Source: a phage. From it: a stretch of DNA of 64,000 nt. Every line of letters starts with the position of its first letter. The stretch's first letter is position 1. The position numbers and the translations under genes were made by a program. Shown piece after piece: positions 23,966 to 44,468 of the stretch. The notes below the pieces were generated by a model. The model had not been told where the DNA came from and searched no databases. It was given only the letters and a program-made list of their open reading frames with translations. The DNA is taken from NCBI GenBank assembly GCA_012813795.1, contig GCA_012813795.1_4087.1, one strand, 5' to 3'.

Positions 23966-24769
23966 TTAGTAGTCTTCGTTATATGCAAAAGCGTAATGAG
24001 AAATTAGTTTATCGTTATACGATACTAAGGTGTAATGTCTACCTTCATCTGATTCAAATAAGCGGTATTCGATTTGACCCCATTTTTCTTTTTTAATGCG
24101 TTTTGCTTTTTCAACATCATATTCTTGCTTTAGGAATGCTTTACAATCAGCAGTCGTTTTGATATCAACGGAATCGGGACTATACAATGAACGCCCAATA
24201 ACTTCAGACATAAAGGCATTAATACCTTTATTCTTACTTTCATCAATATCCATATGACTTTCAAAAGTGCCAATTTCAATCAATTCTAAATTAGAAAGCT
24301 TACTCCATTCTATTAATGTAATATTATCAAGAAGGCAGTAATCATCTTCAAGTTCACCGATATTGGTTTTCATACCAAACATTAGATAAGTTCCATCATT
24401 TGCAGTATCCGGTTTACCTAAAACGACAGTTCCATCACAATTGTTTAATGCACATTTTAGGTCATCTGCTTCTTCTTCACAATCAACATCGGCATTTTTA
24501 TAAATCGTATCAAAAACCCATTGTTTGTCATGTAACGGAATAACAAAATCATCAACATTGGTAATCTGTTCTTTCCAATCTAGTAATGGACTTACGGTTT
24601 GATTGATTTCTGGAATAACTAAAACGTTTGGTTCAGAAACTACTTCATCATATACATTAACATCTTCATAAGTGACGAGAAGAGAACGAGAAGGTTTAGG
24701 ACATTTCAATGTATGTGGTTCATGGTAGAATTTAGTTTTTGAACAATGCTTACAGATTGGATTCGACAT
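23966..24769 (-). CDS. hypothetical protein
   Basis: Track ORF 23966..24937 trimmed to the ATG (MSNPICKHCSK) with GAGGA RBS, which removes the long overlap with the upstream gene; N-terminal Cys pairs. Confidence 0.55.
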   Translation of the reverse strand: MSNPICKHCSKTKFYHEPHTLKCPKPSRSLLVTYEDVNVYDEVVSEPNVLVIPEINQTVSPLLDWKEQITNVDDFVIPLHDKQWVFDTIYKNADVDCEEEADDLKCALNNCDGTVVLGKPDTANDGTYLMFGMKTNIGELEDDYCLLDNITLIEWSKLSNLELIEIGTFESHMDIDESKNKGINAFMSEVIGRSLYSPDSVDIKTTADCKAFLKQEYDVEKAKRIKKEKWGQIEYRLFESDEGRHYTLVSYNDKLISHYAFAYNEDY

Positions 24770-24779
24770 GGATTGATCC

Positions 24780-25139
24780 TCAGATATAACGTTTCTTTTT
24801 ATAATCATACCCGATTGCTTTATAAAAGTCAAACAATGAAGCATGGGTAAACGTAGGTAATAGATCATATGGGTGCTGATAGTTTGCAATGCCAACAATT
24901 TTAAGCATTGATACCGCAGTTCTTGCATTATCTTCATCCCATTCGTCTAAACGCCAAAGGGAACAAAGCACTGCTCGTTCATGTTGCTTACCGAGAAAGA
25001 ATTCAGCTTCACGGTCACGGAATGCACCTACGCTGATAGTACTTTTGTACCAGTCTTTCTCACCATAAGCTGGTAGACGAATGATGTGCTTTTCTTCAGC
25101 TTTACCAAAACGATGTAGGAATGCAACATAATCACTCAT
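24780..25139 (-). CDS. hypothetical protein
   Basis: 119-aa track ORF. Confidence 0.5.
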   Translation of the reverse strand: MSDYVAFLHRFGKAEEKHIIRLPAYGEKDWYKSTISVGAFRDREAEFFLGKQHERAVLCSLWRLDEWDEDNARTAVSMLKIVGIANYQHPYDLLPTFTHASLFDFYKAIGYDYKKKRYI

Positions 25140-33899: not shown

Positions 33900-36800
33900 A
33901 TGAAACCAATAGCTGGCTTAGATCAATTTCCATTTGTTATAGGTGGATTGCAGGTTACTGCTGCAAAGATAGAAGGGCAAGTATTTGTTAAAGAATTGTA
34001 TGTTATAAAACAAAGAACATTCGATTCGTATGATTTGATATCTGAAAATTTCAAGATTTACAAAGATATAAAAATCACAGGTAGAAATAAAGATAAATCA
34101 ACATTGACGTATGATGATGACGATGCTGAAATTGCTAAATCTTTAGCAAATAATACATTTTGCATAAAAGAATCTGATGATTTTAACAAAAAATATGGTT
34201 TTGGTATACAATATCAATTGAATAAAATAAAATTACATAATGGTGAAGTGATATTTAGACAATCCTCAATTCGACCATCAGTACTTAATGGTGTTTTCAT
34301 TACACCGAGTTCATTTGAGATTGATGTTGGTCAACAACAAGTATTTGACGCGATATATGATCCACAAAGTTGGATTAATAAAAATGGTACTTGGGATTAT
34401 GATAAATCAGTTTTTGATGTGGTTTCTTTTACACAAACATCAATCACACTTCTCGCTAAACAAGATGCCATTAATACAGAAATAAAATATTCACCTACTG
34501 GACGAGAAATAAATCGCATAGCAGTCAGTATAGGTTCAGTAGTAGATAACACTTCTATAATTAAAAACATTTCAATAACACCTAATGTCATAAATTCCAA
34601 ATTATCTGAAGATTTTACAGTTAATGTAGTTTATGATCCTATCAAATATAAATTCAAATCAGGTAAATGGTCTGTCAGTGATACATCAGTACTACAATTT
34701 GTTTCTGGTGATGGTGAAACTGCGACATTTAAACCTATCAGCGTTGGTTCTTCCACAATAACATTCACATTAGATAAAGATAGTACAAAAACTGCAACTG
34801 CATCAGTTGAAGTATCTTATGCAGATTTAAAATCCGTCACAATATCACCAGAAAATGTAACTGGTACTATAGGTGAAACTGGTAGTATTTCAATAAGTTA
34901 TGTACCAGATAATGCACAAAAAGGTGGTTCATGGGCTATTTCTGATAAATTAATACTAAAAGAATTATCATCGACAATATCAGAATTTGATTATGAATTG
35001 GTTGGTAATGGAACAACATATGCTACATTCGTCCCATTAGCTAATTATGATGGTTCAATGATAACTGCTAAATTTGATGTTAACTATTCAAAACTTGAAA
35101 ACATTGTTCTTACACCTTCATCAGTTAGTAATCTAGTTCCAGGCGACACAGGAAAAATTAGTATTGAATATACACCAAGTACTGTTGAAACTGGTGGTAC
35201 ATGGTCATTCAATCCAACTGGTGTAATAGAACAAGATCTCAGCAAAAGTACGAGTACTGAAATGTATTATAATGTATTAATCCCAGGTACATCAACTGCA
35301 ACATTCCACCCAACTGCGTCATATGATGGAACTCCTAAAACTGTTTCATTTGAAGTTGGGAATTCCGAGTTAACTGGTATTACGCTAACACCTACTACAT
35401 CAACCGTAAAAATTGGTGATGATTTCTATATTGATATTACATATGAACCAAACACTGCTCTACATGAAGGTACATGGAATACATCAGATTTTGAGAAATA
35501 TGTAACACTCGAATCAGATAGTACACCTGATCGTGCACATTTTAAAGCTATAGGTGTGATTGATTCTGTTAATCTGACATATTCAAAAGGAACAATTAGT
35601 GCAACTAACAAATGTGCAGTTAATTATTCTGATTTAAAATCTATCACATTAAGTCCAACTGCAACATATGCTAAACTTGGTGATGATTTCTATGTAGATA
35701 TTGCATATGATCCAGACACAGCACAACACACGGGTTCATGGAATACATCAGATTTTGAGAAATATGTAACACTAGAATCAGATAGTACACCTGACCGTGC
35801 ACACTTCAAAGCAATTGATTTAGTTGATGAAGTTGATTTGGTATATTCGAATGGTAATATAAGTGATACGAATTATTGTGGAGTTAGTCGTCCACCATTA
35901 ATTTCAGTTTCATTGTCACCTTCTTCTGAAAAAGTTAAAGTTGGTGATTCCTTTAATGTGAAGATTACATATAACCCTAATACTGCTCAACATTACGGTG
36001 AATGGAATTTGGATGAAATAAAAGAATATCTTACATATGATTCGGATCTTAGTGTTTATGATGTGGCTGTGTTTGATGTTATTAAACGTTCTGAAACACC
36101 AATAGAATTGAAATTTACAAGTGCAGGTAAAACTGCAACAAACACTTGTGAATTTGAAGAAGCTGTGTTAACCGGAATTTCATTGAAAATACAAGAAAAT
36201 ACGCCAATATACGACAGCCTATATGTTGTACCATATAAAGGTGACATATATATTGATGTTCTACCTATTCCAGCCGACGCAAAATTACCAGACGATATTG
36301 GAACCATCACTGATAATACGGGATTATATGATTTAACGTTTTTTGATTTTTTGAGTTTTAATAAAGAAAAAAGTACAAATCACCGTTTGTATTTTGATTT
36401 TGTTTCATCATTTGATGAGTATATGTATTTTATTGAGGAATCTTCAAAAGGATTAATATTCACATATACACTGTCTAATGGTATGACGGTAGACTCACCG
36501 GCAATGGTAACAAATTTTCCAGAACTGACGAAAGTCACCCTTGTGCCATCATCTGGAAAATGTGATGTTAACTCAATAATAAAATGCGAGGCAACACTTG
36601 ATAATGGTATGTCAACTTATTATATTAATCCGTTGAGTACTTATACAAGTGAACACGAGGATTATTTGGTAATTGAAGATAGAACATCCTTTCAGCCGTT
36701 TGATGAATTCCTTGAACCAATTGAAATTGTAGGTAAACTTCCAACAAATATATATGTACCAGATGGTAATTACGTATATTTCACATATACACTATCAACC

Positions 36801-37187
36801 ACACCTGCCCAACCGTTGATTGATTATAATATTTACATATATGATAGTAATGAATGTATAAAAGGACGTATAAAAAATCCAACAGACGTAGTTAACATAA
36901 AATATATGAATGTCTTTTTCTTTGACATAGAGAATAATCCACCAAATGCTTTATATAGAGGAAAAATGGAAGGTGGTATTCCTGTTACGTTTCAATATGA
37001 CACCCAAAATTCTAGATTAAATTCGTATACTTATATGGTACAGGGGGTAACTGATGGACCAATAACTCTAAAATACACTTCATCTGCTACTGGTGTTATT
37101 AGAACTGCACAAGTTGATGTTACTGGACCAATGACTGATGATAGTAATAAAACTGATGAGGGGGGTGATGGTGATTTACTTAAATGA
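33900..37187 (+). CDS. large Ig-like (Big_2-type) repeat protein 1
   Basis: 1095 aa; about 7 tandem ~90-aa units with the recurring pattern ...TP..(V/K)(L/I).GD.F...I.Y.P.TA.H.G.W...; distinct ~330-aa C-terminal region. Confidence 0.75.
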   Translation: MKPIAGLDQFPFVIGGLQVTAAKIEGQVFVKELYVIKQRTFDSYDLISENFKIYKDIKITGRNKDKSTLTYDDDDAEIAKSLANNTFCIKESDDFNKKYGFGIQYQLNKIKLHNGEVIFRQSSIRPSVLNGVFITPSSFEIDVGQQQVFDAIYDPQSWINKNGTWDYDKSVFDVVSFTQTSITLLAKQDAINTEIKYSPTGREINRIAVSIGSVVDNTSIIKNISITPNVINSKLSEDFTVNVVYDPIKYKFKSGKWSVSDTSVLQFVSGDGETATFKPISVGSSTITFTLDKDSTKTATASVEVSYADLKSVTISPENVTGTIGETGSISISYVPDNAQKGGSWAISDKLILKELSSTISEFDYELVGNGTTYATFVPLANYDGSMITAKFDVNYSKLENIVLTPSSVSNLVPGDTGKISIEYTPSTVETGGTWSFNPTGVIEQDLSKSTSTEMYYNVLIPGTSTATFHPTASYDGTPKTVSFEVGNSELTGITLTPTTSTVKIGDDFYIDITYEPNTALHEGTWNTSDFEKYVTLESDSTPDRAHFKAIGVIDSVNLTYSKGTISATNKCAVNYSDLKSITLSPTATYAKLGDDFYVDIAYDPDTAQHTGSWNTSDFEKYVTLESDSTPDRAHFKAIDLVDEVDLVYSNGNISDTNYCGVSRPPLISVSLSPSSEKVKVGDSFNVKITYNPNTAQHYGEWNLDEIKEYLTYDSDLSVYDVAVFDVIKRSETPIELKFTSAGKTATNTCEFEEAVLTGISLKIQENTPIYDSLYVVPYKGDIYIDVLPIPADAKLPDDIGTITDNTGLYDLTFFDFLSFNKEKSTNHRLYFDFVSSFDEYMYFIEESSKGLIFTYTLSNGMTVDSPAMVTNFPELTKVTLVPSSGKCDVNSIIKCEATLDNGMSTYYINPLSTYTSEHEDYLVIEDRTSFQPFDEFLEPIEIVGKLPTNIYVPDGNYVYFTYTLSTTPAQPLIDYNIYIYDSNECIKGRIKNPTDVVNIKYMNVFFFDIENNPPNALYRGKMEGGIPVTFQYDTQNSRLNSYTYMVQGVTDGPITLKYTSSATGVIRTAQVDVTGPMTDDSNKTDEGGDGDLLK
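35415..35825 (+). repeat. near-identical intragenic tandem duplication (period about 273 bp)
   Basis: Two copies sharing an almost identical ~60-bp core (catggaatacatcagattttgagaaatatgtaacact.gaatcagatagtacacctga), encoding the duplicated peptide SDFEKYVTLESDSTPDRAHFKAI. Confidence 0.8.
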
Positions 37188-37223
37188 TTATAAATTAATT
37201 TTAATGCTAAGGAGAAATATTTT

Positions 37224-39743
37224 ATGGCAGAATTAAAATCAATTAGATTTAACAATAATGGTGTTGTAAACAGCACCATTTATAAAACCAGTACTATAAC
37301 GGTTACATATGACCCAGTTGATTGGTATGATCAAACTGGGAAATGGGTATATGATAGTACGTATATTAAAGTGTTGTATAGGAGTGGTGAGAAACTTATT
37401 TTCAAAACACTCAAAGAAGGAAACACAAATATATCATTTTCACCAACTAATTATGATTCTTTAAAACAAACGTGTACTGTTGATATTCATACCGATACAG
37501 TTCAAAGTATCTCATTGAATCCAACTGAAAACATGTTGAAGTATAGTTCTGAATTTGAAATCGATGTCACTTATAACCCACCAATTGGCACGGATCTTCC
37601 AACATGGACATATGATAAAAATGTTTTAACATATGATGCTGAAAAAAGTACAAGGGATAAAGCTTTCTTTAAAGTAAATTCTAGTGTTTTAAGTCCAGTA
37701 TCAGGTAAGATTACATGTACGTATGGTGTAGATTTATCAGCGGAAAGTTTTTATTACGTGTCCGAAAACCCCGCATCACGTGTAAAATTGTCTCCTGATA
37801 CATCAAACGTACTACTTGGTGATACGTTCTCAGTTAATATTTTATATGATCCACTTGGGTGTGATAAAACTGGTGTATGGAGTTACGATGATACATGTCT
37901 TGAATACAACGAATCACGCTCAACTTCTGATGTTGCATATTTTAAAGCAATTAAAACACCAGAAGGAAATAATGACACGTTAAAATTAACATATAAATGT
38001 GCATCATCCGTGTCCGATTCAACAACGTGTACAATATCATATGATCCATTGCAATCAGTTAAATTGACAACAATCCCAGCTTCATTGAATCCAGATGCAA
38101 TGATAAACGTAAAAGCTGGGGATGGGTTTAGTGTTAAGGTCACATATGTCCCAGACACCGCCAGACATGATGGTGTTTTGAATTTTAACCCACTATATTT
38201 CACCTATGAAAAAGACCAATCTGCACAAGACACTTTTTTAATCACACCAATTCTACCATCTATAGACACTGATGAACCTGTGCAGCCGATATCTTTTACT
38301 TCTAACGGGATTATATCAAATATACTCAATTTCACAATAGATTATTCTGACCTTGTTTCGGTATCTTTTGACCCACCAGAAGTTAATACAACCGCTGGTT
38401 CTGTATTTGGTGTAACTGTGATTTATAATCCAAGCACAGCTAAAAATGACGGTGAATGGAACATTGCTAATGTTCTGGATTATATTAAAAAAGGAACAAC
38501 AGTCGGTGATTCAACTTCATTCCAATCTTTGAAAGCCACAGTTGATAGTGATGGAAACCCATCAAGTATAGATATGGTTTACAAAAGTGGTTATATCAGT
38601 ACACCTATTAAATGTAACATTGATTATAGTGAGTTGAAATCTATTAATGTAAAATGTGATCCGTCATATCCACTGAATACTTCTCTTGGGATAATAGCAA
38701 CATATACACCAGACACCGCAAAACATGATGGTGTATGGACATGTTCATCAGATTTAATTCCAGGTGCATCTACTCCAGATCTTGGGTCATTCCGTACAGG
38801 TAAATTAGTAAATGCAAAAAGTGTAGTTACTGTAACATCTAAATCCAATAAAGATATTGGTGCATCATGTGGATTTACCTCAACTTATTCTAAGTTAAAA
38901 GGTATAACAGTAACACCACTTGGAACAACAACAGTTAAACCTGGTGATTCATTTGGTATACAAATATCGTATAATCCAAACACTGCACAGCATCTTGGTA
39001 TGTATAATTGGGATTTTAACCCTGATTATTTTGAATATAACTATGAGTTGTCAGAGCCAAACAAAGATATACAATATTTTAATGCTTTATTACCCACACC
39101 AGAAGAAGGTTCAGTACTAACATGTCTCCCACCTGAAGGGTCTGGTGCTACATCTGGTAAATGTGTAATAACCGTTAGTTATCCTCCAATCAAATCAGTG
39201 TCTATTGAACCACCTGAATCAACTCATAAATTTGGTGATGTGTTCAACCTTATCGTGAAATATGATCCAGATACAGCAAGAAAAATGGGTACATGGGAAT
39301 ATGATAAAGATCGAATAGCATTAGTTAATCCGGTAACCGACCTTAACGATCAAGCAACATTTTATGTTATCAATAACGGTATAGGTGGAGAAACGGATAT
39401 ATCATATTCATATTATCCAGGCGTAACTGCAACACATAAGTGTACTGTAGAATATGAAAACTTGGATACCCTAAGTTTAGTTCCTCCAAGAATCAAGAAA
39501 AAACCAGGTAATACTTTCTATATAAAAATCATATACACACCAGATGGTGCATTACATGATGGTACATGGACATACAATAAAACTGTATTTGAATATACAC
39601 AGGAAAGTACTAAAGATTTGGGAGTTTTTAAAATTTCCGACACTGCTCCTGAAGGTGCATACCAATTATCATATCAACCAAAAACTGCTGATCCAGATCA
39701 AACATTCCCACCTGTAATTTTACAATGCACTATTACAAAATAA
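37224..39743 (+). CDS. large Ig-like repeat protein 2
   Basis: 839 aa; about 9 repeat units of the same type; GGAGAAA RBS. Confidence 0.75.
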   Translation: MAELKSIRFNNNGVVNSTIYKTSTITVTYDPVDWYDQTGKWVYDSTYIKVLYRSGEKLIFKTLKEGNTNISFSPTNYDSLKQTCTVDIHTDTVQSISLNPTENMLKYSSEFEIDVTYNPPIGTDLPTWTYDKNVLTYDAEKSTRDKAFFKVNSSVLSPVSGKITCTYGVDLSAESFYYVSENPASRVKLSPDTSNVLLGDTFSVNILYDPLGCDKTGVWSYDDTCLEYNESRSTSDVAYFKAIKTPEGNNDTLKLTYKCASSVSDSTTCTISYDPLQSVKLTTIPASLNPDAMINVKAGDGFSVKVTYVPDTARHDGVLNFNPLYFTYEKDQSAQDTFLITPILPSIDTDEPVQPISFTSNGIISNILNFTIDYSDLVSVSFDPPEVNTTAGSVFGVTVIYNPSTAKNDGEWNIANVLDYIKKGTTVGDSTSFQSLKATVDSDGNPSSIDMVYKSGYISTPIKCNIDYSELKSINVKCDPSYPLNTSLGIIATYTPDTAKHDGVWTCSSDLIPGASTPDLGSFRTGKLVNAKSVVTVTSKSNKDIGASCGFTSTYSKLKGITVTPLGTTTVKPGDSFGIQISYNPNTAQHLGMYNWDFNPDYFEYNYELSEPNKDIQYFNALLPTPEEGSVLTCLPPEGSGATSGKCVITVSYPPIKSVSIEPPESTHKFGDVFNLIVKYDPDTARKMGTWEYDKDRIALVNPVTDLNDQATFYVINNGIGGETDISYSYYPGVTATHKCTVEYENLDTLSLVPPRIKKKPGNTFYIKIIYTPDGALHDGTWTYNKTVFEYTQESTKDLGVFKISDTAPEGAYQLSYQPKTADPDQTFPPVILQCTITK

Positions 39744-39770
39744 TAGACTGAAATTACTTTACAAAAAAAA

Positions 39771-39792
39771 TGTGGTTGAATATTCAACCACA
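39771..39792. repeat. perfect 22-bp palindrome
   Basis: TGTGGTTGAATATTCAACCACA preceded by A8, 20 nt upstream of the RBS of 39814. Confidence 0.7.
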
Positions 39793-39813
39793 TAATAAGA
39801 AGGAAACATAATT

Positions 39814-41439
39814 ATGATAGAAGATTCAAAAAATCTTATTTCAGTTAGTTTAAACAAAAGAACTATTAGAACTTCTGTTCGTGATGTTAACACATTATAT
39901 GTTAGTTTTAATCCACCTGACTATATTAATCAGGTTGGAACATGGACATATGATGAACAGTATATTGAAATGATCACACAAGATAATTTGGTTTTTGTTT
40001 TTAAATCTATAAAAAGTGGTGTAACCACCATAACATACACACCACGTGATAATAAAGCATTATCGAAGAATTGTATAGTTAATATTGAAAAAATACCATT
40101 ATCATCAATTAGTCTTAACCCAAATTATATAACTTTATACAAAGGTCAAACTTTTGATATTGATATATCATATATCCCAGATGGAGCAGTTCATTCGGGT
40201 AATTGGAGTAATTTAAACAATGATATATTGTATATAGGTCAACAAAGTACACCTGATAAATCAAGAATGCAAGTACTAACAACTGATGCTAAGATGATAA
40301 CTTTATATTATACCAGTGGCGAAATATCAGTTCCTTTGAATTGTACTATATTGAACAACCCAGCAGATGAAATTATTTTCGATCCACCATCACCAATTAA
40401 TGTAACAGTTGGTGAGAGTTTTTTTGTAAACATAAACTATGCACCAGAAAATGCGGATAAGGTTGGATTCTGGGAATATGATGATTCAGTACTGATGTTA
40501 TTGAATGATAGTGATAAGGCATCCAGTGCACATTTTGTGGCTACCAAAAAAACCACATCAACTGGAACTGAACTTAAATTCCGTTCAGGTGATGTGTACT
40601 CAACGTTACAGTGCTTTATAACTCCTGGTGTTTTAGATTTATTAACATTAACACCTAGTTATGAAACGGTGGTTGTTGGTGACGCGTTTGACATTGGAAT
40701 AACCTATTACCCAGAAGACATAATTCACAAAGGTATATGGGAATATGATTCTACATATTTCAAAAAAATGTTCGATGACTCAAATACTGCAACATTTAGA
40801 TTAATCAAAAAATCCGACATACCATTAAAATTAAGATATATCTCTTATGGGAGAGCATTTAATAATATATGCACTACTGTTGAAAATGGTGATTTAGTTT
40901 CATTACAATTAAACCCTAATTCCGAATCAGTTGAGGTTGGTAAAAGTTTTGATATCGCAATAACATATAAACCTGATAATGCTTTACATAGTGGTATATG
41001 GGATTTCGATTCGGAATATATTAAATTGGAAAAATCAAGTACAGTGGATAAAGCAACATTTACAGTACTGAAATATAATCCAAATCCATTAACATTAACT
41101 TATAAATCAGGTAAAACAACTGCAACAAACAAATGTATTACTGTAAAAAATACACCAGTATTAAGTAGTATTAAAGTATCCCCAGAATCAACTGAAATGA
41201 AAGTTGGTGATACAGTATTATTATCAATTTCATACAACCCTAATACAGTAGAGCATATGGGAATGTGGTATTATGATAAAAAACTATTCAAATTAATAGA
41301 CACAGGTCAAACACATGACTATGGTATATTTGAATGCTTGGCGGTGTCAGACGCAAAATCACCAATAGTATTTTCAAGTGCTGGAAATGCTGATGCTTGT
41401 ATTGTCACAACTAAAGAAAAAACAACTAAAGAGGATTAA
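39814..41439 (+). CDS. large Ig-like repeat protein 3
   Basis: 541 aa; about 6 repeat units; AAGGAAA RBS. Confidence 0.75.
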   Translation: MIEDSKNLISVSLNKRTIRTSVRDVNTLYVSFNPPDYINQVGTWTYDEQYIEMITQDNLVFVFKSIKSGVTTITYTPRDNKALSKNCIVNIEKIPLSSISLNPNYITLYKGQTFDIDISYIPDGAVHSGNWSNLNNDILYIGQQSTPDKSRMQVLTTDAKMITLYYTSGEISVPLNCTILNNPADEIIFDPPSPINVTVGESFFVNINYAPENADKVGFWEYDDSVLMLLNDSDKASSAHFVATKKTTSTGTELKFRSGDVYSTLQCFITPGVLDLLTLTPSYETVVVGDAFDIGITYYPEDIIHKGIWEYDSTYFKKMFDDSNTATFRLIKKSDIPLKLRYISYGRAFNNICTTVENGDLVSLQLNPNSESVEVGKSFDIAITYKPDNALHSGIWDFDSEYIKLEKSSTVDKATFTVLKYNPNPLTLTYKSGKTTATNKCITVKNTPVLSSIKVSPESTEMKVGDTVLLSISYNPNTVEHMGMWYYDKKLFKLIDTGQTHDYGIFECLAVSDAKSPIVFSSAGNADACIVTTKEKTTKED

Positions 41440-41442
41440 ATC

Positions 41443-43644
41443 ATGTCAAAAGATGATCAATTAACATCTGTTACCCTACAACCAGAATCAGTAACACTGA
41501 ATGTGGGTGACAATAAAATTGTATATGCAGTTTATACACCAAATACATATACACCAAAAAAAGGTAAATGGATATATGATGCAAATATTGTATCTGTTAC
41601 ACATGAAGAAGATACCTTTATGCAATTCATTGCAGTAAAACCTTCTGAAACTGAAATAACGTACATTCCATTGGGTGCACCTGAATTTGCTTGTAGTACA
41701 GTTGTTACAATTAAAGGTACTGATCCAACAGATGATTTGGTATTAGATCCAGAAAACGAAACAGTTCAGGTCAATACTGATTTTTATATTAATGTAAAAT
41801 ATAATCAAGCAGATGGTATCCCAACATGGAAATATGACCAATCTGTAGTTAAATATATGCCTGATAGTACACCTAGTAAAGCACACTTTAAAGCACTAAA
41901 AACTACTGCGAATAGTATTCCTTTGGTTTGTGAATGCGGAAATAACACTAAAATGAATTTATGTACAGTTGTTGATACTGCGGCCACCATATCATTGAAT
42001 CCACAACACGTAACTAAACAAGTTGGTGACGACTATTATGTTGATATTTTTTACTCCAAAAAAGTTCAAGATCCAGTAGTTACATGGGACGGTACTGATG
42101 AGTTTTTAGAATTACAACCTGATAGCAACCCATACCGTGCTCATTTCAAAGTTGTAAAATATTCTGAAGATCTTGTTTCAAGAAGAATTACAACTTCAAT
42201 GGGTAAAAGTGCCACACATACCTGTGTTACACGTTATAGTGATTTGAAAAACATTTTCATTGATTATCCAAGTAAAAATTTAATGGTTGGTGACCAATTT
42301 AAATTAACAGCGTTGTATTATCCAGATACGGCAAATCATGATGCTAAATGGTCGTTTGATTCTGGTAATTTTATTATTGATAGTAGTAGAACCACGCCAA
42401 ATGAAGCATACTTCACTGCACTAAAAGCAACATCAGGGGCAGACTTCAAGAGTATTACATTGAGTAGTGGTACATTTAAAGATGAATGTAAATGTATAAT
42501 TAATGAATCCTCATACTCAGAAGAAGATAATGTGCCAGTACTAAATCAACGTGCAAGTGGGGATTTGGATAGTGTTGTAGTAACTCCATTAACAATTGCA
42601 TCCAGAGTTGGGCAGCCTAAAATTATATCTGCGGTTTTCGAACCAAGAGATTATAGTGATAAATCAGGAACTTGGATGTATGATCCACAAACACTTGACG
42701 TATTGTCTGAACAAGATAACTATATAATCATAAAACCGAACCATATTAGTAATACATTTGTTGAATTTGTTTCCAATGATAAACCTTCATTTAGTTCTAA
42801 TTGTTCCATCGTGGTTTCAAGTGATGGTTTTGTAATTTCACCAACACACCAACATGTAAAATTAACTGAAGATTTTTATATTGATGTTTTATTCGATGAA
42901 TCGAAAGGTAAACCAGTATGGAGATACGATACTAATTACATAAAAATGTTGGATGACAGTACTGATACCAAACCACATTTTCAAGCATTTAATATGACAA
43001 GTGAGGATGAATTAATAACCAAATTAGTATGTTCGTATGACAATATGGAACAAATATTCACTTGTTATATTGATAAAAATACTAACCCAATATCATGTCA
43101 CCCATCAAAATCATTACAATTTATGTCATCTGATTTTTGGATAAATGTTGCATATGATAAAGAAAATACAAAATCTTCTTTATTGGATGTCGATTTTATT
43201 ACATGGGATGATGATAATGAATACGTTGAACTACAACCTGACAGTACCTCTTTCGTAGCCCATTTCAAAGTTGTGAAATATAAAAATGGTCAAATTACAA
43301 GAACAGCAACCTCCAAATCTGGACATACCGCCACATTTGCCATATCATTATATTCACCATATACTTACATCGATATGACACCACAATTTGAAACTTATTC
43401 TATGAATAGTATTATAGTTTTGAGCATAAATTACGGAGGTAGTCCATATACACCTGAATACAAAAAATTCAATGACATGTTAAATTATGATTCTAGATTT
43501 CTGCAATTGGAGGATGATAGTACTGGCGATAAACTATACTTCACTCCTTTATCTCCAACAGGAAATAACTTTACAACTGTTATATTTTCCGACGATAACA
43601 CACGTTTGATGTCTGCAAAAAGTTGCATTACAATTAAAAAATAA
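41443..43644 (+). CDS. large Ig-like repeat protein 4
   Basis: 733 aa; about 8 repeat units; starts 3 nt after the stop of protein 3. Confidence 0.75.
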   Translation: MSKDDQLTSVTLQPESVTLNVGDNKIVYAVYTPNTYTPKKGKWIYDANIVSVTHEEDTFMQFIAVKPSETEITYIPLGAPEFACSTVVTIKGTDPTDDLVLDPENETVQVNTDFYINVKYNQADGIPTWKYDQSVVKYMPDSTPSKAHFKALKTTANSIPLVCECGNNTKMNLCTVVDTAATISLNPQHVTKQVGDDYYVDIFYSKKVQDPVVTWDGTDEFLELQPDSNPYRAHFKVVKYSEDLVSRRITTSMGKSATHTCVTRYSDLKNIFIDYPSKNLMVGDQFKLTALYYPDTANHDAKWSFDSGNFIIDSSRTTPNEAYFTALKATSGADFKSITLSSGTFKDECKCIINESSYSEEDNVPVLNQRASGDLDSVVVTPLTIASRVGQPKIISAVFEPRDYSDKSGTWMYDPQTLDVLSEQDNYIIIKPNHISNTFVEFVSNDKPSFSSNCSIVVSSDGFVISPTHQHVKLTEDFYIDVLFDESKGKPVWRYDTNYIKMLDDSTDTKPHFQAFNMTSEDELITKLVCSYDNMEQIFTCYIDKNTNPISCHPSKSLQFMSSDFWINVAYDKENTKSSLLDVDFITWDDDNEYVELQPDSTSFVAHFKVVKYKNGQITRTATSKSGHTATFAISLYSPYTYIDMTPQFETYSMNSIIVLSINYGGSPYTPEYKKFNDMLNYDSRFLQLEDDSTGDKLYFTPLSPTGNNFTTVIFSDDNTRLMSAKSCITIKK

Positions 43645-43664
43645 TTATTATATTAAATAATTTA

Positions 43665-43684
43665 AAGGAGCCATAAGGCTCCTT
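43665..43684 (+). terminator. intrinsic terminator closing the plus-strand cassette
   Basis: Stem AAGGAGCC/GGCTCCTT with 4-nt loop followed by TTTCTTTT; sits between convergent genes. Confidence 0.55.
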
Positions 43685-43689
43685 TTCTT

Positions 43690-43992
43690 TTATAGTTCAA
43701 TATTACCAGATAACACACTGTAATCTTTATTCATAAGTTCACAAACATATGATACAGTTGAAACATCTTTGTAATAAATTGTTAACCCAAAACGACCACG
43801 GATACGTTCTTCTTTTTCTTGATACATGAATGTTCGTACAACGTAGTACTTATTATTCTTTGGTTCATAACGTGCTTCGTACCCTTTAACTTTGTAAGCA
43901 CTAGTAGAAGTACAAATAATCAATGACACAATAACCCACACGATTATAAAGAATGCCATTAGTCCAAGAAAAACAAAAGCTTGAATCATCAT
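43690..43992 (-). CDS. membrane-anchored hypothetical protein
   Basis: 100 aa; N-terminal TM (FVFLGLMAFFIIVWVIVSLII). Confidence 0.5.
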   Translation of the reverse strand: MMIQAFVFLGLMAFFIIVWVIVSLIICTSTSAYKVKGYEARYEPKNNKYYVVRTFMYQEKEERIRGRFGLTIYYKDVSTVSYVCELMNKDYSVLSGNIEL

Positions 43993-44468
43993 TTTAATCC
44001 CATGTCAAATATACAGTTAACTTCAATCCCAGCATCTTCCAGTACTTTAATAGCTTCTAGTGGAGTGCGAGGATACGATTTTTCGTAAATTACACGAGAA
44101 ATACCACTACCAGCGATTAACTTAGAACAAGTATAGCACGGTTGGAGTGTGGTGTAAAGTGTTGCACCCTGACGTTCTTGTGGTGAACTATATAGTAATG
44201 CATTCATTTCCGCATGGATCTCATGAATGTTGCTCCACTCGTGATGTAAGTGTTTTGCATCTTCATCAATCCAATTTTGAAATTGACCATTGTTTACGAG
44301 ATGTTTATTAACATCACAACAGTTAGGTTGCTTTGATGGTGTACCGTTATATCCAGTACTCAATACTCGGTTATTCTTTACAATAACACAACCTACTTTC
44401 TGGGAAAGACACTTACTTTCCTCAGCAACGACACTGGCTATCTTCAACCACGTTGTATGTTTCATCAT
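43989..44468 (-). CDS. cd: dCMP deaminase
   Basis: 159 aa; N-terminus WLKIASVVAEESKC parallels T4 Cd; zinc motifs HAEMNAL and PCYTCSK. Confidence 0.85.
   Translation of the reverse strand: MMKHTTWLKIASVVAEESKCLSQKVGCVIVKNNRVLSTGYNGTPSKQPNCCDVNKHLVNNGQFQNWIDEDAKHLHHEWSNIHEIHAEMNALLYSSPQERQGATLYTTLQPCYTCSKLIAGSGISRVIYEKSYPRTPLEAIKVLEDAGIEVNCIFDMGLK

What the first reader, a model, noticed from the sequence alone, without database searches (positions are those of the whole stretch)
35415..35825. Very recent intragenic duplication of one Ig-like unit
Two adjacent repeat units in the first Ig-like gene share a near-identical ~60-bp DNA core while other units are diverged at the DNA level. This indicates ongoing unit expansion or contraction by recombination and could make the protein length-variable between isolates.
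Basis: seen in the sequence. Interest (0 to 1): 0.4.

Follow-up and report, generated by a model that had tools for sequence, protein, structure and literature searches.

The report
Old tandem Ig-domain duplication, phage protein
Two neighbouring Ig-like domains in a jumbo-phage virion protein are copies of each other and share a 78-base stretch that is 92% identical, but the copying is ancient rather than recent, so this is an ordinary repeat-protein feature.

Summary
Units A (35367-35630) and B (35631-35894) of the 1095-aa gene 33900-37187 are in-frame 264-nt tandem copies. They are 75.6% identical in DNA; the median of 465 unit pairs in the window is 45.5% and the next best pair is 62.8%. 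A central 78-nt core (35475-35552 and 35739-35816) is 92% identical and contains a 37-nt exact run.

The interpretation "very recent" is not supported. All six core differences are synonymous, giving core dS of about 0.51. Flank dS is about 0.81 with dN 0.35. This phage differs from its nearest relative, Escherichia phage A4, by dS 0-0.02 in the genes beside the cassette. The same 26-aa core peptide recurs at 22/26 residues in a unit from a related phage, where synonymous sites are randomised.

The likeliest history is an old whole-unit duplication whose core stayed identical through protein-level constraint, possibly helped by an old short-tract gene conversion.

The unit is a Big_2-type Ig-like fold (pLDDT 96; TM 0.84 to the lambda gpV C-terminal domain). 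The gene opens a hypervariable Ig-array cassette (34260-44025) in an Asteriusvirus-like jumbo phage.

No close isolate was found, so present-day length variation could not be tested. Related phages carry 18 units in the homologous gene, against 8 here.

The parts
33900..37187 (+). Gene g1 (1095 aa): an N-terminal virion-anchor-like domain followed by an array of Ig-like units. It is listed in NCBI as a hypothetical or Ig-like domain-containing protein (ABV23_RS02350).
   Evidence: ORF list; translation; exact match P0001 on a 357,761-bp contig; PF22544 E=8e-7; phrog_33171 'virion structural protein' E=1.2e-19 on aa 1-119.
33900..34250 (+). N-terminal anchor-like domain (aa 1-117), the only part of g1 conserved in phage A4 and other Asteriusviruses.
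   Evidence: 91.7% nt identity to A4 over the first 360 nt only. 42% aa identity (E=2e-25) to phAPEC6 gp347, a 14.1-kDa protein found in the virion proteome with 75% coverage (PMC7247149, Table 1).
35367..35630 (+). Unit A (aa 490-577), one 88-codon Big_2-type Ig-like unit.
   Evidence: HMM unit; codon alignment; AlphaFold2 model of aa 488-579 with pLDDT 96 and pTM 0.85; Foldseek TM 0.84 to the lambda gpV C-terminal Ig-like domain 7t4f_A.
35631..35894 (+). Unit B (aa 578-665), the in-frame tandem copy of unit A.
   Evidence: 75.6% nt and 69.5% aa identity to unit A with no indels; sister to A in the NJ tree, bootstrap 189/200.
35475..35552 (+). Core of unit A: 26 codons encoding WNTSDFEKYVTLESDSTPDRAHFKAI.
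   Evidence: 72/78 nt identical to the core of B. All 6 differences are synonymous: dN 0, dS 0.51. In the model it maps to residues 39-64: the end of one strand (Trp), a short turn, strand 48-50, the loop ESDSTPD and strand 58-63.
35739..35816 (+). Core of unit B, encoding the identical 26-aa peptide.
35473..35509 (+). 37-nt exact direct repeat. The second copy lies at 35737-35773, 264 nt downstream and in frame.
   Evidence: The shuffle probability of a run this long is 0.0002-0.0004.
35895..36164 (+). Unit C (aa 666-755), the next unit of the array and an older relative of A and B.
   Evidence: 58% nt identity to A and 55% to B.
37224..39743 (+). Gene g2 (839 aa): nine Ig-like units and no anchor domain.
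39814..41439 (+). Gene g3 (541 aa): six Ig-like units.
41443..43644 (+). Gene g4 (733 aa): eight Ig-like units.
34260..44025 (.). Hypervariable cassette. It is flanked by DNA 97-99.6% identical to Escherichia phage A4, but it has no DNA match in A4 or in any other phage record.
   Evidence: A4 has 3.2 kb here. phAPEC6 has only gp347. L002-L004 have 14.6-15.3 kb.
43664..43685 (.). Bidirectional terminator-like hairpin that closes the four-gene cassette.

Best explanation
Gene g1 encodes a virion-associated fibre-like protein of an Asteriusvirus-type jumbo coliphage. It has a 117-aa N-terminal anchor domain followed by a string of 88-90-aa Big_2-type Ig-like domains. Units A and B arose from an in-frame tandem duplication of one whole 264-nt unit. 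The mechanism, unequal recombination or replication slippage between neighbouring units, is inferred. The event happened after this cassette lineage split from the L002-L004 lineage, but long ago. Synonymous sites in the outer parts of the units are saturated, and those parts have taken on many amino-acid changes (dN/dS about 0.43). The central 26 codons have stayed identical at the protein level and carry only synonymous differences. That segment covers the end of the Trp strand, a turn, a short strand, the ESDSTPD loop and the RAHFKA strand. Purifying selection on this peptide is the main reason the DNA core looks 'near-identical'. The AT-biased codon usage and possibly an old short-tract gene conversion add to the effect. 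Functionally (inferred), the duplication lengthens the fibre by one Ig domain and doubles one conserved surface or structural patch. Nothing indicates that the array is changing length now.
For: The duplication is shown by period 264 without indels. A/B is the top pair among 465 window pairs and 2,926 pairs across four loci. A and B are sisters with bootstrap 189/200, or 124/200 without the core.

The age is shown by whole-unit dS 0.715, flank dS 0.81 and core dS 0.51. Flank codon identity at conserved residues is 19/32, no different from the 0.535 baseline of old pairs (p=0.3). dS to phage A4 in adjacent genes is 0-0.02.

Peptide-level constraint is shown in three ways. There are 0 nonsynonymous changes over 61.8 sites in the core, against 39.5 over 142.5 sites in the flanks, and all 6 core changes are synonymous. 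The same peptide is 22/26 identical in L002.g1 unit 1385-1467, where only 12/21 codons match, which is about the baseline. The motif W..Y..L..DST..(R/K)AHF occurs in 27 units across the four loci. Core and flank synonymous differences are not significantly different (6/25 against 13/32, Fisher p=0.26).

The fold is supported by an AlphaFold2 model with pLDDT 96, with best PDB matches to Big_2 Ig-like domains of lambda gpV, phi29 capsid protein, an N4 capsid chain and LigA.

Virion association rests on the N-terminal domain being 42% identical to phAPEC6 gp347, which was detected in virions by mass spectrometry (PMC7247149), and on phrog_33171 'virion structural protein'.
Against: The core has somewhat more identical codons than saturation predicts: 19/25 observed against 13.2 expected, P about 0.01. 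The ratio of A-B divergence to A/B-outgroup divergence is 0.14-0.33 in the core but 0.60-0.92 in the flanks (Fisher p 0.0003-0.16, depending on the outgroup). Pure rate heterogeneity would predict equal ratios, so a later homogenisation of the core by gene conversion is not excluded and may contribute. The sample is small: 26 codons and 6 differences. Virion association and function are inferred from homology of the N-terminal domain only. This protein has never been detected or studied.
Confidence: 0.6

Rival explanations
1. An old duplication was followed by a later short-tract gene conversion of roughly 80-150 nt that overwrote the core of one unit with that of the other. The six synonymous differences accumulated after that event. 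On this reading conversion, not selection, is the main cause of the core identity.
For: Identity is mosaic: 90-97% in 30-nt windows across 35472-35546, against 60-73% at the unit ends. There is a 37-nt exact run with P=0.0002-0.0004. The relative-age ratio is 0.14-0.33 in the core and 0.60-0.92 in the flanks, significant with 5 of 6 outgroups. In the flanks A is no closer to B (35/62 aa) than to its positional orthologues L00x 497-579 (31-33/56 aa). Core codon identity of 19/25 exceeds the saturation expectation (P about 0.01).
Against: Synonymous divergence in the core (dS 0.51) is not significantly lower than in the flanks (dS 0.81; Fisher p=0.26). At codons conserved in A, B and an outgroup, A-B synonymous differences in the core (4-6) are only slightly fewer than A-outgroup differences (6-11). 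The excess similarity is carried almost entirely by nonsynonymous sites, as selection predicts. The same peptide is conserved across phages without DNA identity. Even if this rival is true, the conversion is itself old.
Confidence: 0.3
2. This is the first reader's reading: a very recent duplication of one unit, with ongoing expansion or contraction that makes the protein length-variable between isolates.
For: A/B is the most similar unit pair. There is a 37-nt exact in-frame direct repeat. Unit number differs between distantly related cassettes, 8 against 18.
Against: There are 67 differences in 264 nt, with whole-unit dS 0.715, dN 0.224 and 27 amino-acid differences. Core dS is 0.51, at least 25 times the dS to the nearest relative, A4. 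No variant copy number was found, because no close relative exists in any searched collection.
Confidence: 0.05
3. The core is conserved in both copies because it holds a nucleic-acid signal, such as an internal promoter, a terminator, an RNA structure or a recombination site, rather than because of the protein.
For: None found.
Against: No promoter-like or terminator-like site falls within 35473-35552 or 35737-35816, and promoter-like sites are not enriched in the region (56 found against 66.9 expected). There is no Rfam match there at E<=1. All differences are at third codon positions, which is the signature of protein-level constraint, not nucleotide-level constraint. The related unit in L002 keeps the peptide but not the DNA.
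Confidence: 0.02

Closest known systems
Ig-like (Big_2 / I-set / FN3) domains displayed on tailed-phage virion proteins (Fraser et al. 2006, J Mol Biol 359:496, cited in PMC5259590), e.g. the lambda gpV C-terminal domain, T4 Hoc and the phi29 capsid protein
   Same: The fold is the same: TM 0.84 and rmsd 1.5 A to the lambda gpV C-terminal Ig-like domain, with further matches to the phi29 capsid protein, an N4 capsid chain and LigA. The domains are appended to a virion-associated module. The proposed role, weak accessory binding to surfaces, comes from that literature and was not tested here.
   Different: Here there are 8-18 domains per protein and 31 in four adjacent genes, far more than the 1-4 typical of Hoc or gpV. 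Sequence matches to Pfam Big_2 fall below the curated cut-off (17.7 against 22.8 bits). Three of the four genes lack any recognisable anchor domain.
Tandem domain-repeat evolution in phage tail-associated proteins: BACON repeats of crAssphage (de Jonge et al. 2019, PMC6949934)
   Same: It is a tandem array of one beta-sandwich domain in a phage structural-region protein, built up by sequential domain duplications. Adjacent units are the most similar.
   Different: The domain family is different (Big_2-like, not BACON), the phage group is different (a jumbo myovirus of E. coli), and the array sits in a cassette that is swapped wholesale between close relatives.
Modular Ig-like adhesins of gut phages (Apjok et al. 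2026, PMC13370021) and the Hoc-mucus adherence model (own knowledge: Barr et al. 2013)
   Same: These are Ig-like-domain proteins on phages of gut bacteria, in which small changes in domain sequence alter binding (abstract). That is a plausible analogue for the fast-evolving unit flanks (dN/dS 0.43).
   Different: No binding data exist for this protein. Sequence relatedness to those adhesins was not tested.
phAPEC6 gp347 and 121Q ORF471 'virion structural protein' (Asteriusvirus)
   Same: The N-terminal 117 aa of g1 is homologous to them (42% identity), and the genomic position is the same.
   Different: Those proteins are about 125 aa with the anchor alone. Here the anchor is fused to about 980 aa of Ig-like repeats.

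Membership tests
Bacterial Ig-like domain, Big_2 type (fold level) | A beta-sandwich of about 80-90 residues and seven strands, superposable on solved Big_2 domains | tested here: met
   The AlphaFold2 model of unit A has pLDDT 96, pTM 0.85 and 7 strands. Foldseek against the PDB gives 7quz Big_2-CBM56 at E=1.8e-5, lambda gpV 7t4f_A at TM 0.84 and rmsd 1.5 A, and also the phi29 capsid protein and LigA.
Pfam PF02368 Big_2 (sequence family) | hmmscan score at or above the gathering threshold (22.8 bits) | tested here: not met
   g1 scores 17.7 bits (E=0.0036) and g4 scores 14.0 bits. The units are too divergent for sequence-level membership.
Pfam PF22544 HYDIN/VesB/CFA65-like Ig-like domain | Whole-protein score at or above the gathering threshold (25.5 bits) | tested here: met
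   g1 scores 29.7 bits (E=8e-7), g3 scores 25.5 and g2 scores 25.2 (borderline). The match is summed over weak repeats and no single stretch passes alone in g1.
Recent tandem (intragenic) duplication | The pair is more similar than all other unit pairs, adjacent and in register | tested here: met
   75.6% against a median of 45.5%, with next best 62.8% in the window and 65.4% across four loci. The period is 264 nt with no indels.
Recent tandem (intragenic) duplication | Low synonymous divergence between the copies, of the order of or below the divergence between close isolates | tested here: not met
   dS is 0.715 for the whole unit, 0.51 for the core and 0.81 for the flanks. dS to phage A4 in flanking genes is 0-0.02.
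Recent tandem (intragenic) duplication | Copy-number polymorphism among isolates or reads | not testable with these tools
   No close relative of the cassette was found in the phage records, E. coli complete genomes, IMG/VR, GTDB genomes or JGI metagenomes. No read data are available.
Gene-conversion tract | A bounded tract in which both synonymous and nonsynonymous divergence drop relative to the flanks | tested here: inconclusive
   dN drops from 0.35 to 0 and dS from 0.81 to 0.51. The synonymous contrast is not significant (6/25 against 13/32, p=0.26).
Gene-conversion tract | Different relative age or phylogeny of the tract and the flanks | tested here: inconclusive
   The A-B/outgroup divergence ratio is 0.14-0.33 in the core and 0.60-0.92 in the flanks, with p from 0.0003 to 0.16 depending on the outgroup. 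The effect is carried by nonsynonymous sites and is not significant at synonymous sites.
Phage virion decoration / accessory fibre protein (Hoc-like in function) | Physical presence in the virion | not testable with these tools
   The support is indirect. The N-terminal domain is 42% identical to phAPEC6 gp347, which was found in the virion by mass spectrometry (PMC7247149), and it matches phrog_33171 'virion structural protein'.
Phage virion decoration / accessory fibre protein (Hoc-like in function) | Sequence homology to a characterised decoration protein (Hoc, pb10, gpD, Soc, etc.) | tested here: not met
   No Pfam, PHROG or PDB-sequence match to any such protein. Only the generic Ig fold is shared.

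The most novel reading that the evidence does not exclude
The 9.8-kb cassette (34260-44025) is one allele of a recombination-shuffled, hypervariable 'Ig-array' locus of Asteriusvirus jumbo phages. The locus ranges from a bare 125-aa anchor protein in phAPEC6 to about 15 kb with five array genes in other phages. On this reading it encodes long, flexible virion surface fibres whose length and binding surfaces differ from phage to phage. Within it, the A/B core would be a ligand-contact patch kept identical in two adjacent domains, by selection or conversion, to gain avidity, while the rest of each domain diversifies.
Probability: 0.15. Interest if true: 0.5.

Novelty: new member of a known kind. 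Interest (0 to 1): 0.2.

Why it matters
As posed, the finding has little consequence. It is a normal, old domain duplication in a repeat protein, and there is no evidence of current length instability.

The context has more interest. Two jumbo coliphages that are 98-99% identical on both sides carry completely different content at this locus. Related phages range from no Ig array to 42 Ig-like units there. If these proteins are virion surface fibres, the locus may account for part of the differences in surface adhesion, or in the 'hairy' morphology, among Asteriusviruses used in phage therapy work. That would make it a natural target for engineering fibre length and binding.

Tried and rejected
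1. I looked for isolates with a different copy number. I ran megablast and blastn of g1 against 50,697 phage records and megablast against 5,426 complete E. coli genomes. I also ran a protein-pattern scan of IMG/VR and degenerate DNA patterns for the core peptide against GTDB genomes and JGI metagenomes.

2. The search for homologous proteins with the 176-aa A+B segment returned nothing, although the parent protein is in the database. Only the full-length query worked; it returned four proteins.

3. I tested for a nucleic-acid element in the core. The promoter and terminator scan and Rfam were both negative.

4. I tested whether unit A is a recombinant junction between a unit-5-type and a unit-15-type of an 18-unit ancestor, which would be direct evidence of contraction. 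A and B both have a core most like L002 units 1296/1385 and a C-terminal part most like the positional orthologue 497-579. Both units share the same pattern and the counts are small, so this could not be resolved and is not claimed.

5. I considered assigning the 'hairy' tail and capsid fibres of phAPEC6 or CBB to this gene family. I rejected this as a claim because phAPEC6 itself has only the 125-aa anchor gene at this locus, and the papers leave the fibre genes unassigned (PMC7247149, PMC5259590).

6. I checked whether g1/g2 or g3/g4 form one interrupted ORF. They are in the same frame, but each downstream gene has its own start codon and Shine-Dalgarno-like sequence, and g1/g2 are separated by two stop codons. 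They are treated as separate genes.

7. An assembly artefact such as a collapsed or mis-joined repeat is unlikely, because the copies differ at 67 of 264 positions.
Full report
**What the window is.** On both sides of the region, the window is 97-99.6% identical to Escherichia phage A4, a 355.5-kb Asteriusvirus (ON286972). It is about 80% identical to 121Q, PBECO4, phAPEC6 and other Rak2-like jumbo phages. The 1095-aa product of 33900-37187 exists in NCBI as a hypothetical or 'Ig-like domain-containing' protein. It sits on a 357,761-bp contig filed under E. coli, which is almost certainly the phage genome itself.

**The cassette.** Identity to A4 stops at 34259 and resumes at 44025. The intervening 9.8 kb has no DNA match in 50,697 phage records. 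It holds four co-oriented genes:
- g1, 33900-37187
- g2, 37224-39743
- g3, 39814-41439
- g4, 41443-43644

An HMM built from the units themselves finds 31 Ig-like units of about 80-90 aa in these genes: 8, 9, 6 and 8. A bidirectional terminator-like hairpin at 43664-43685 closes the block.

**Checking the observation.** Tandem Repeats Finder reports one array of period 264, with 1.9 copies, 77% matches and no indels, at 35409-35901. In codon register, unit A is aa 490-577 (35367-35630) and unit B is aa 578-665 (35631-35894).

- A and B are 75.6% identical in DNA and 69.5% in protein.
- Across all 465 unit pairs in the window, the median is 45.5% (sd 4.4%) and the runner-up is 62.8%.
- In three related loci fetched later (154 units in all, 2,926 within-locus pairs), no pair exceeds 65.4%.

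Similarity is uneven along the unit. Thirty-nucleotide windows reach 90-97% across the centre and fall to 60-73% at the ends. The core, 35475-35552 against 35739-35816, matches at 72 of 78 nt. It contains a 37-nt exact run (35473-35509 = 35737-35773). A run that long is very unlikely if the 67 differences were spread evenly (P=0.0002-0.0004).

**How old is the duplication?** All six core differences are third-position synonymous changes. The 26-aa peptide WNTSDFEKYVTLESDSTPDRAHFKAI is identical in both units. Nei-Gojobori estimates:

| Segment | dS | dN |
|---|---|---|
| Core | 0.51 (6 changes over 16.2 synonymous sites) | 0 |
| Flanks | 0.81 | 0.35 |
| Whole unit | 0.715 | 0.224 |

At residues conserved between A and B, 19 of 32 flank codons are identical. 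That is indistinguishable from the 53.5% seen among the 464 old unit pairs, so the flanks are at synonymous saturation. The core has 19 of 25 identical codons, modestly above saturation (P about 0.01-0.02). The direct contrast between core and flank is not significant (Fisher p=0.26).

For calibration, three genes just to the right of the cassette differ from phage A4 by dS 0-0.02. Even the best-preserved part of the pair has therefore been separate at least 25 times longer than this phage and its nearest sequenced relative. 'Very recent' is not tenable.

**Why the core is so similar.** Full-length g1 retrieved three homologues of 1859-1881 aa (about 48% identity), and I fetched their loci as L002-L004. 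Each carries 18 units in g1.

- The core peptide recurs there. L002.g1 unit 1385-1467 has 22 of 26 identical residues, but only 12 of 21 matching codons, which is about the baseline.
- Other units of L002, L003 and L004 keep 16-19 of 26 residues.
- The looser motif W..Y..L..DST..(R/K)AHF is present in 27 units of the four loci.

So the peptide is held by selection across phages whose DNA has been randomised at silent sites. This is the simplest explanation for a core with dN = 0 next to flanks with dN/dS about 0.43.

One complication remains. The ratio of A-B divergence to A/B-outgroup divergence is 0.14-0.33 in the core but 0.60-0.92 in the flanks (p from 0.0003 to 0.16, depending on the outgroup). 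Simple rate heterogeneity does not predict this. Two things could produce it. One is an old short-tract gene conversion between A and B. The other is a shared, protein-specific constraint on two domains of the same fibre. The effect sits at nonsynonymous sites, and synonymous sites alone do not discriminate. I therefore rank selection first (0.6) and conversion as the main cause second (0.3).

**Are A and B really sister copies?** In a neighbour-joining tree of codon-aligned DNA from all 62 g1 units of the four loci, A and B are sisters. Bootstrap support is 189/200, or 124/200 when the core columns are removed. L002 unit 1385-1467 and the positional orthologues 497-579 come next. A whole-unit duplication after the split from the L002-L004 lineage is therefore supported, though the support outside the core is only moderate.

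**What the unit and the protein are.** An AlphaFold2 model of aa 488-579, built with the 31 window units as the alignment, is very confident (pLDDT 96, pTM 0.85, seven strands). Its best PDB matches are Big_2-type Ig-like domains:
- a Big_2-CBM56 protein (E=1.8e-5)
- the C-terminal domain of lambda tail-tube protein V (TM 0.84, rmsd 1.5 A)
- the phi29 capsid protein
- an N4 capsid chain
- LigA

At the sequence level only PF22544 passes its cut-off, and Big_2 itself does not. The core covers model residues 39-64. That is the conserved Trp at the end of one strand, a short turn, strand 48-50, the ESDSTPD loop and strand 58-63.

The first 117 aa of g1 match phrog_33171 'virion structural protein'. 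They are 42% identical to phAPEC6 gp347, a 14.1-kDa protein recovered from virions with 75% peptide coverage (PMC7247149). By inference, g1 is a virion-anchored fibre of Ig-like domains. The usual proposal for such domains is weak accessory binding to surfaces (Fraser et al. 2006, as cited in PMC5259590; see also PMC13370021). Nothing of this was tested here.

**Length variation.** Over longer evolutionary distances the family clearly changes unit number: 8 recognisable units in g1 here against 18 in L002-L004. The locus as a whole ranges from a single 125-aa anchor gene in phAPEC6, to 3.2 kb in A4, to about 15 kb in L002-L004. The 37-nt exact repeat is long enough in principle for homologous recombination to remove or add one 88-aa unit in frame. 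That is my own knowledge of minimal homology requirements, not a tool result, and it shows only that the event is possible.

**Other explanations excluded.** No promoter-like site, terminator-like site or Rfam family lies in either core copy. The third-position pattern of the differences also argues against a nucleotide-level signal. An assembly artefact is unlikely given 67 differences between the copies.

**Verdict.** Its key adjective is wrong, because the duplication is old. This is a new example of a well-known kind, sequential domain duplication in phage Ig-like or BACON-type repeat proteins (PMC6949934). Interest in the finding as posed is low. The surrounding hypervariable Ig-array cassette is the more noteworthy feature.

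Noticed in passing
window 34260-44025: The whole four-gene Ig-array block is a replaceable cassette. Phage A4 is 97-99.6% identical on both sides but has 3.2 kb of unrelated content there. phAPEC6 has only a 125-aa virion protein gene. Three related contigs have 14.6-15.3 kb with five array genes (40-42 units).
   Followed up: partly
window 37224-43644 (g2, g3, g4): Only g1 carries the N-terminal anchor-like domain. g2, g3 and g4 begin directly with an Ig-like unit (first units at aa 4, 8 and 7), so it is unclear how their products would attach to a virion. g3 and g4 are in the same frame and separated only by TAA ATC before the ATG.
   Followed up: partly
L001 (phage A4) locus 24518-25021, record 94517-95020: In A4 the homologue of the g1 anchor region is annotated as a 66-aa 'putative structural protein' plus a 43-aa ORF. 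This looks like a truncated remnant left at the cassette boundary. A4_464 (722 aa) has its own paralogous anchor-like N-terminus and is 97% identical to gene 5 of L004.
   Followed up: partly
L002 10001-15646, aa 1296-1561 of the 1881-aa protein: A related phage carries three tandem units of the same GDDFYIDITY...ESDSTPD(K/R)AHF subtype as units A and B. They are 61-64% identical in DNA to each other. This is an independent, or older, local expansion of the same unit type.
   Followed up: partly
window 36165-37187 (g1 aa 756-1095): The C-terminal 340 aa of g1 is barely recognised by the unit HMM (one hit, aa 992-1068). It has no counterpart in the collinear alignment with the 1881-aa homologue, which ends at aa 762. 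It may hold degenerate units or a distinct distal domain.
   Followed up: no
window 43664-43685: A perfect 9-bp-stem hairpin (AAAGGAGCC ATAA GGCTCCTTT) with T-runs on both strands sits between the convergent cassette and the leftward genes. It looks like a bidirectional terminator.
   Followed up: no
window 33900-34259 against phage A4: The conserved first 360 nt of g1 is only 91.7% identical to A4, while neighbouring DNA is 97-99.6% identical. Divergence rises towards the cassette boundary, as expected near a recombination junction.
   Followed up: no
window 35367-35894 (protein query): the search for homologous proteins returned no hit for the 176-aa A+B segment, although the full-length parent protein is in the same database at 100% identity. 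This appears to be a sensitivity quirk of the word index for short repeat queries.
   Followed up: no
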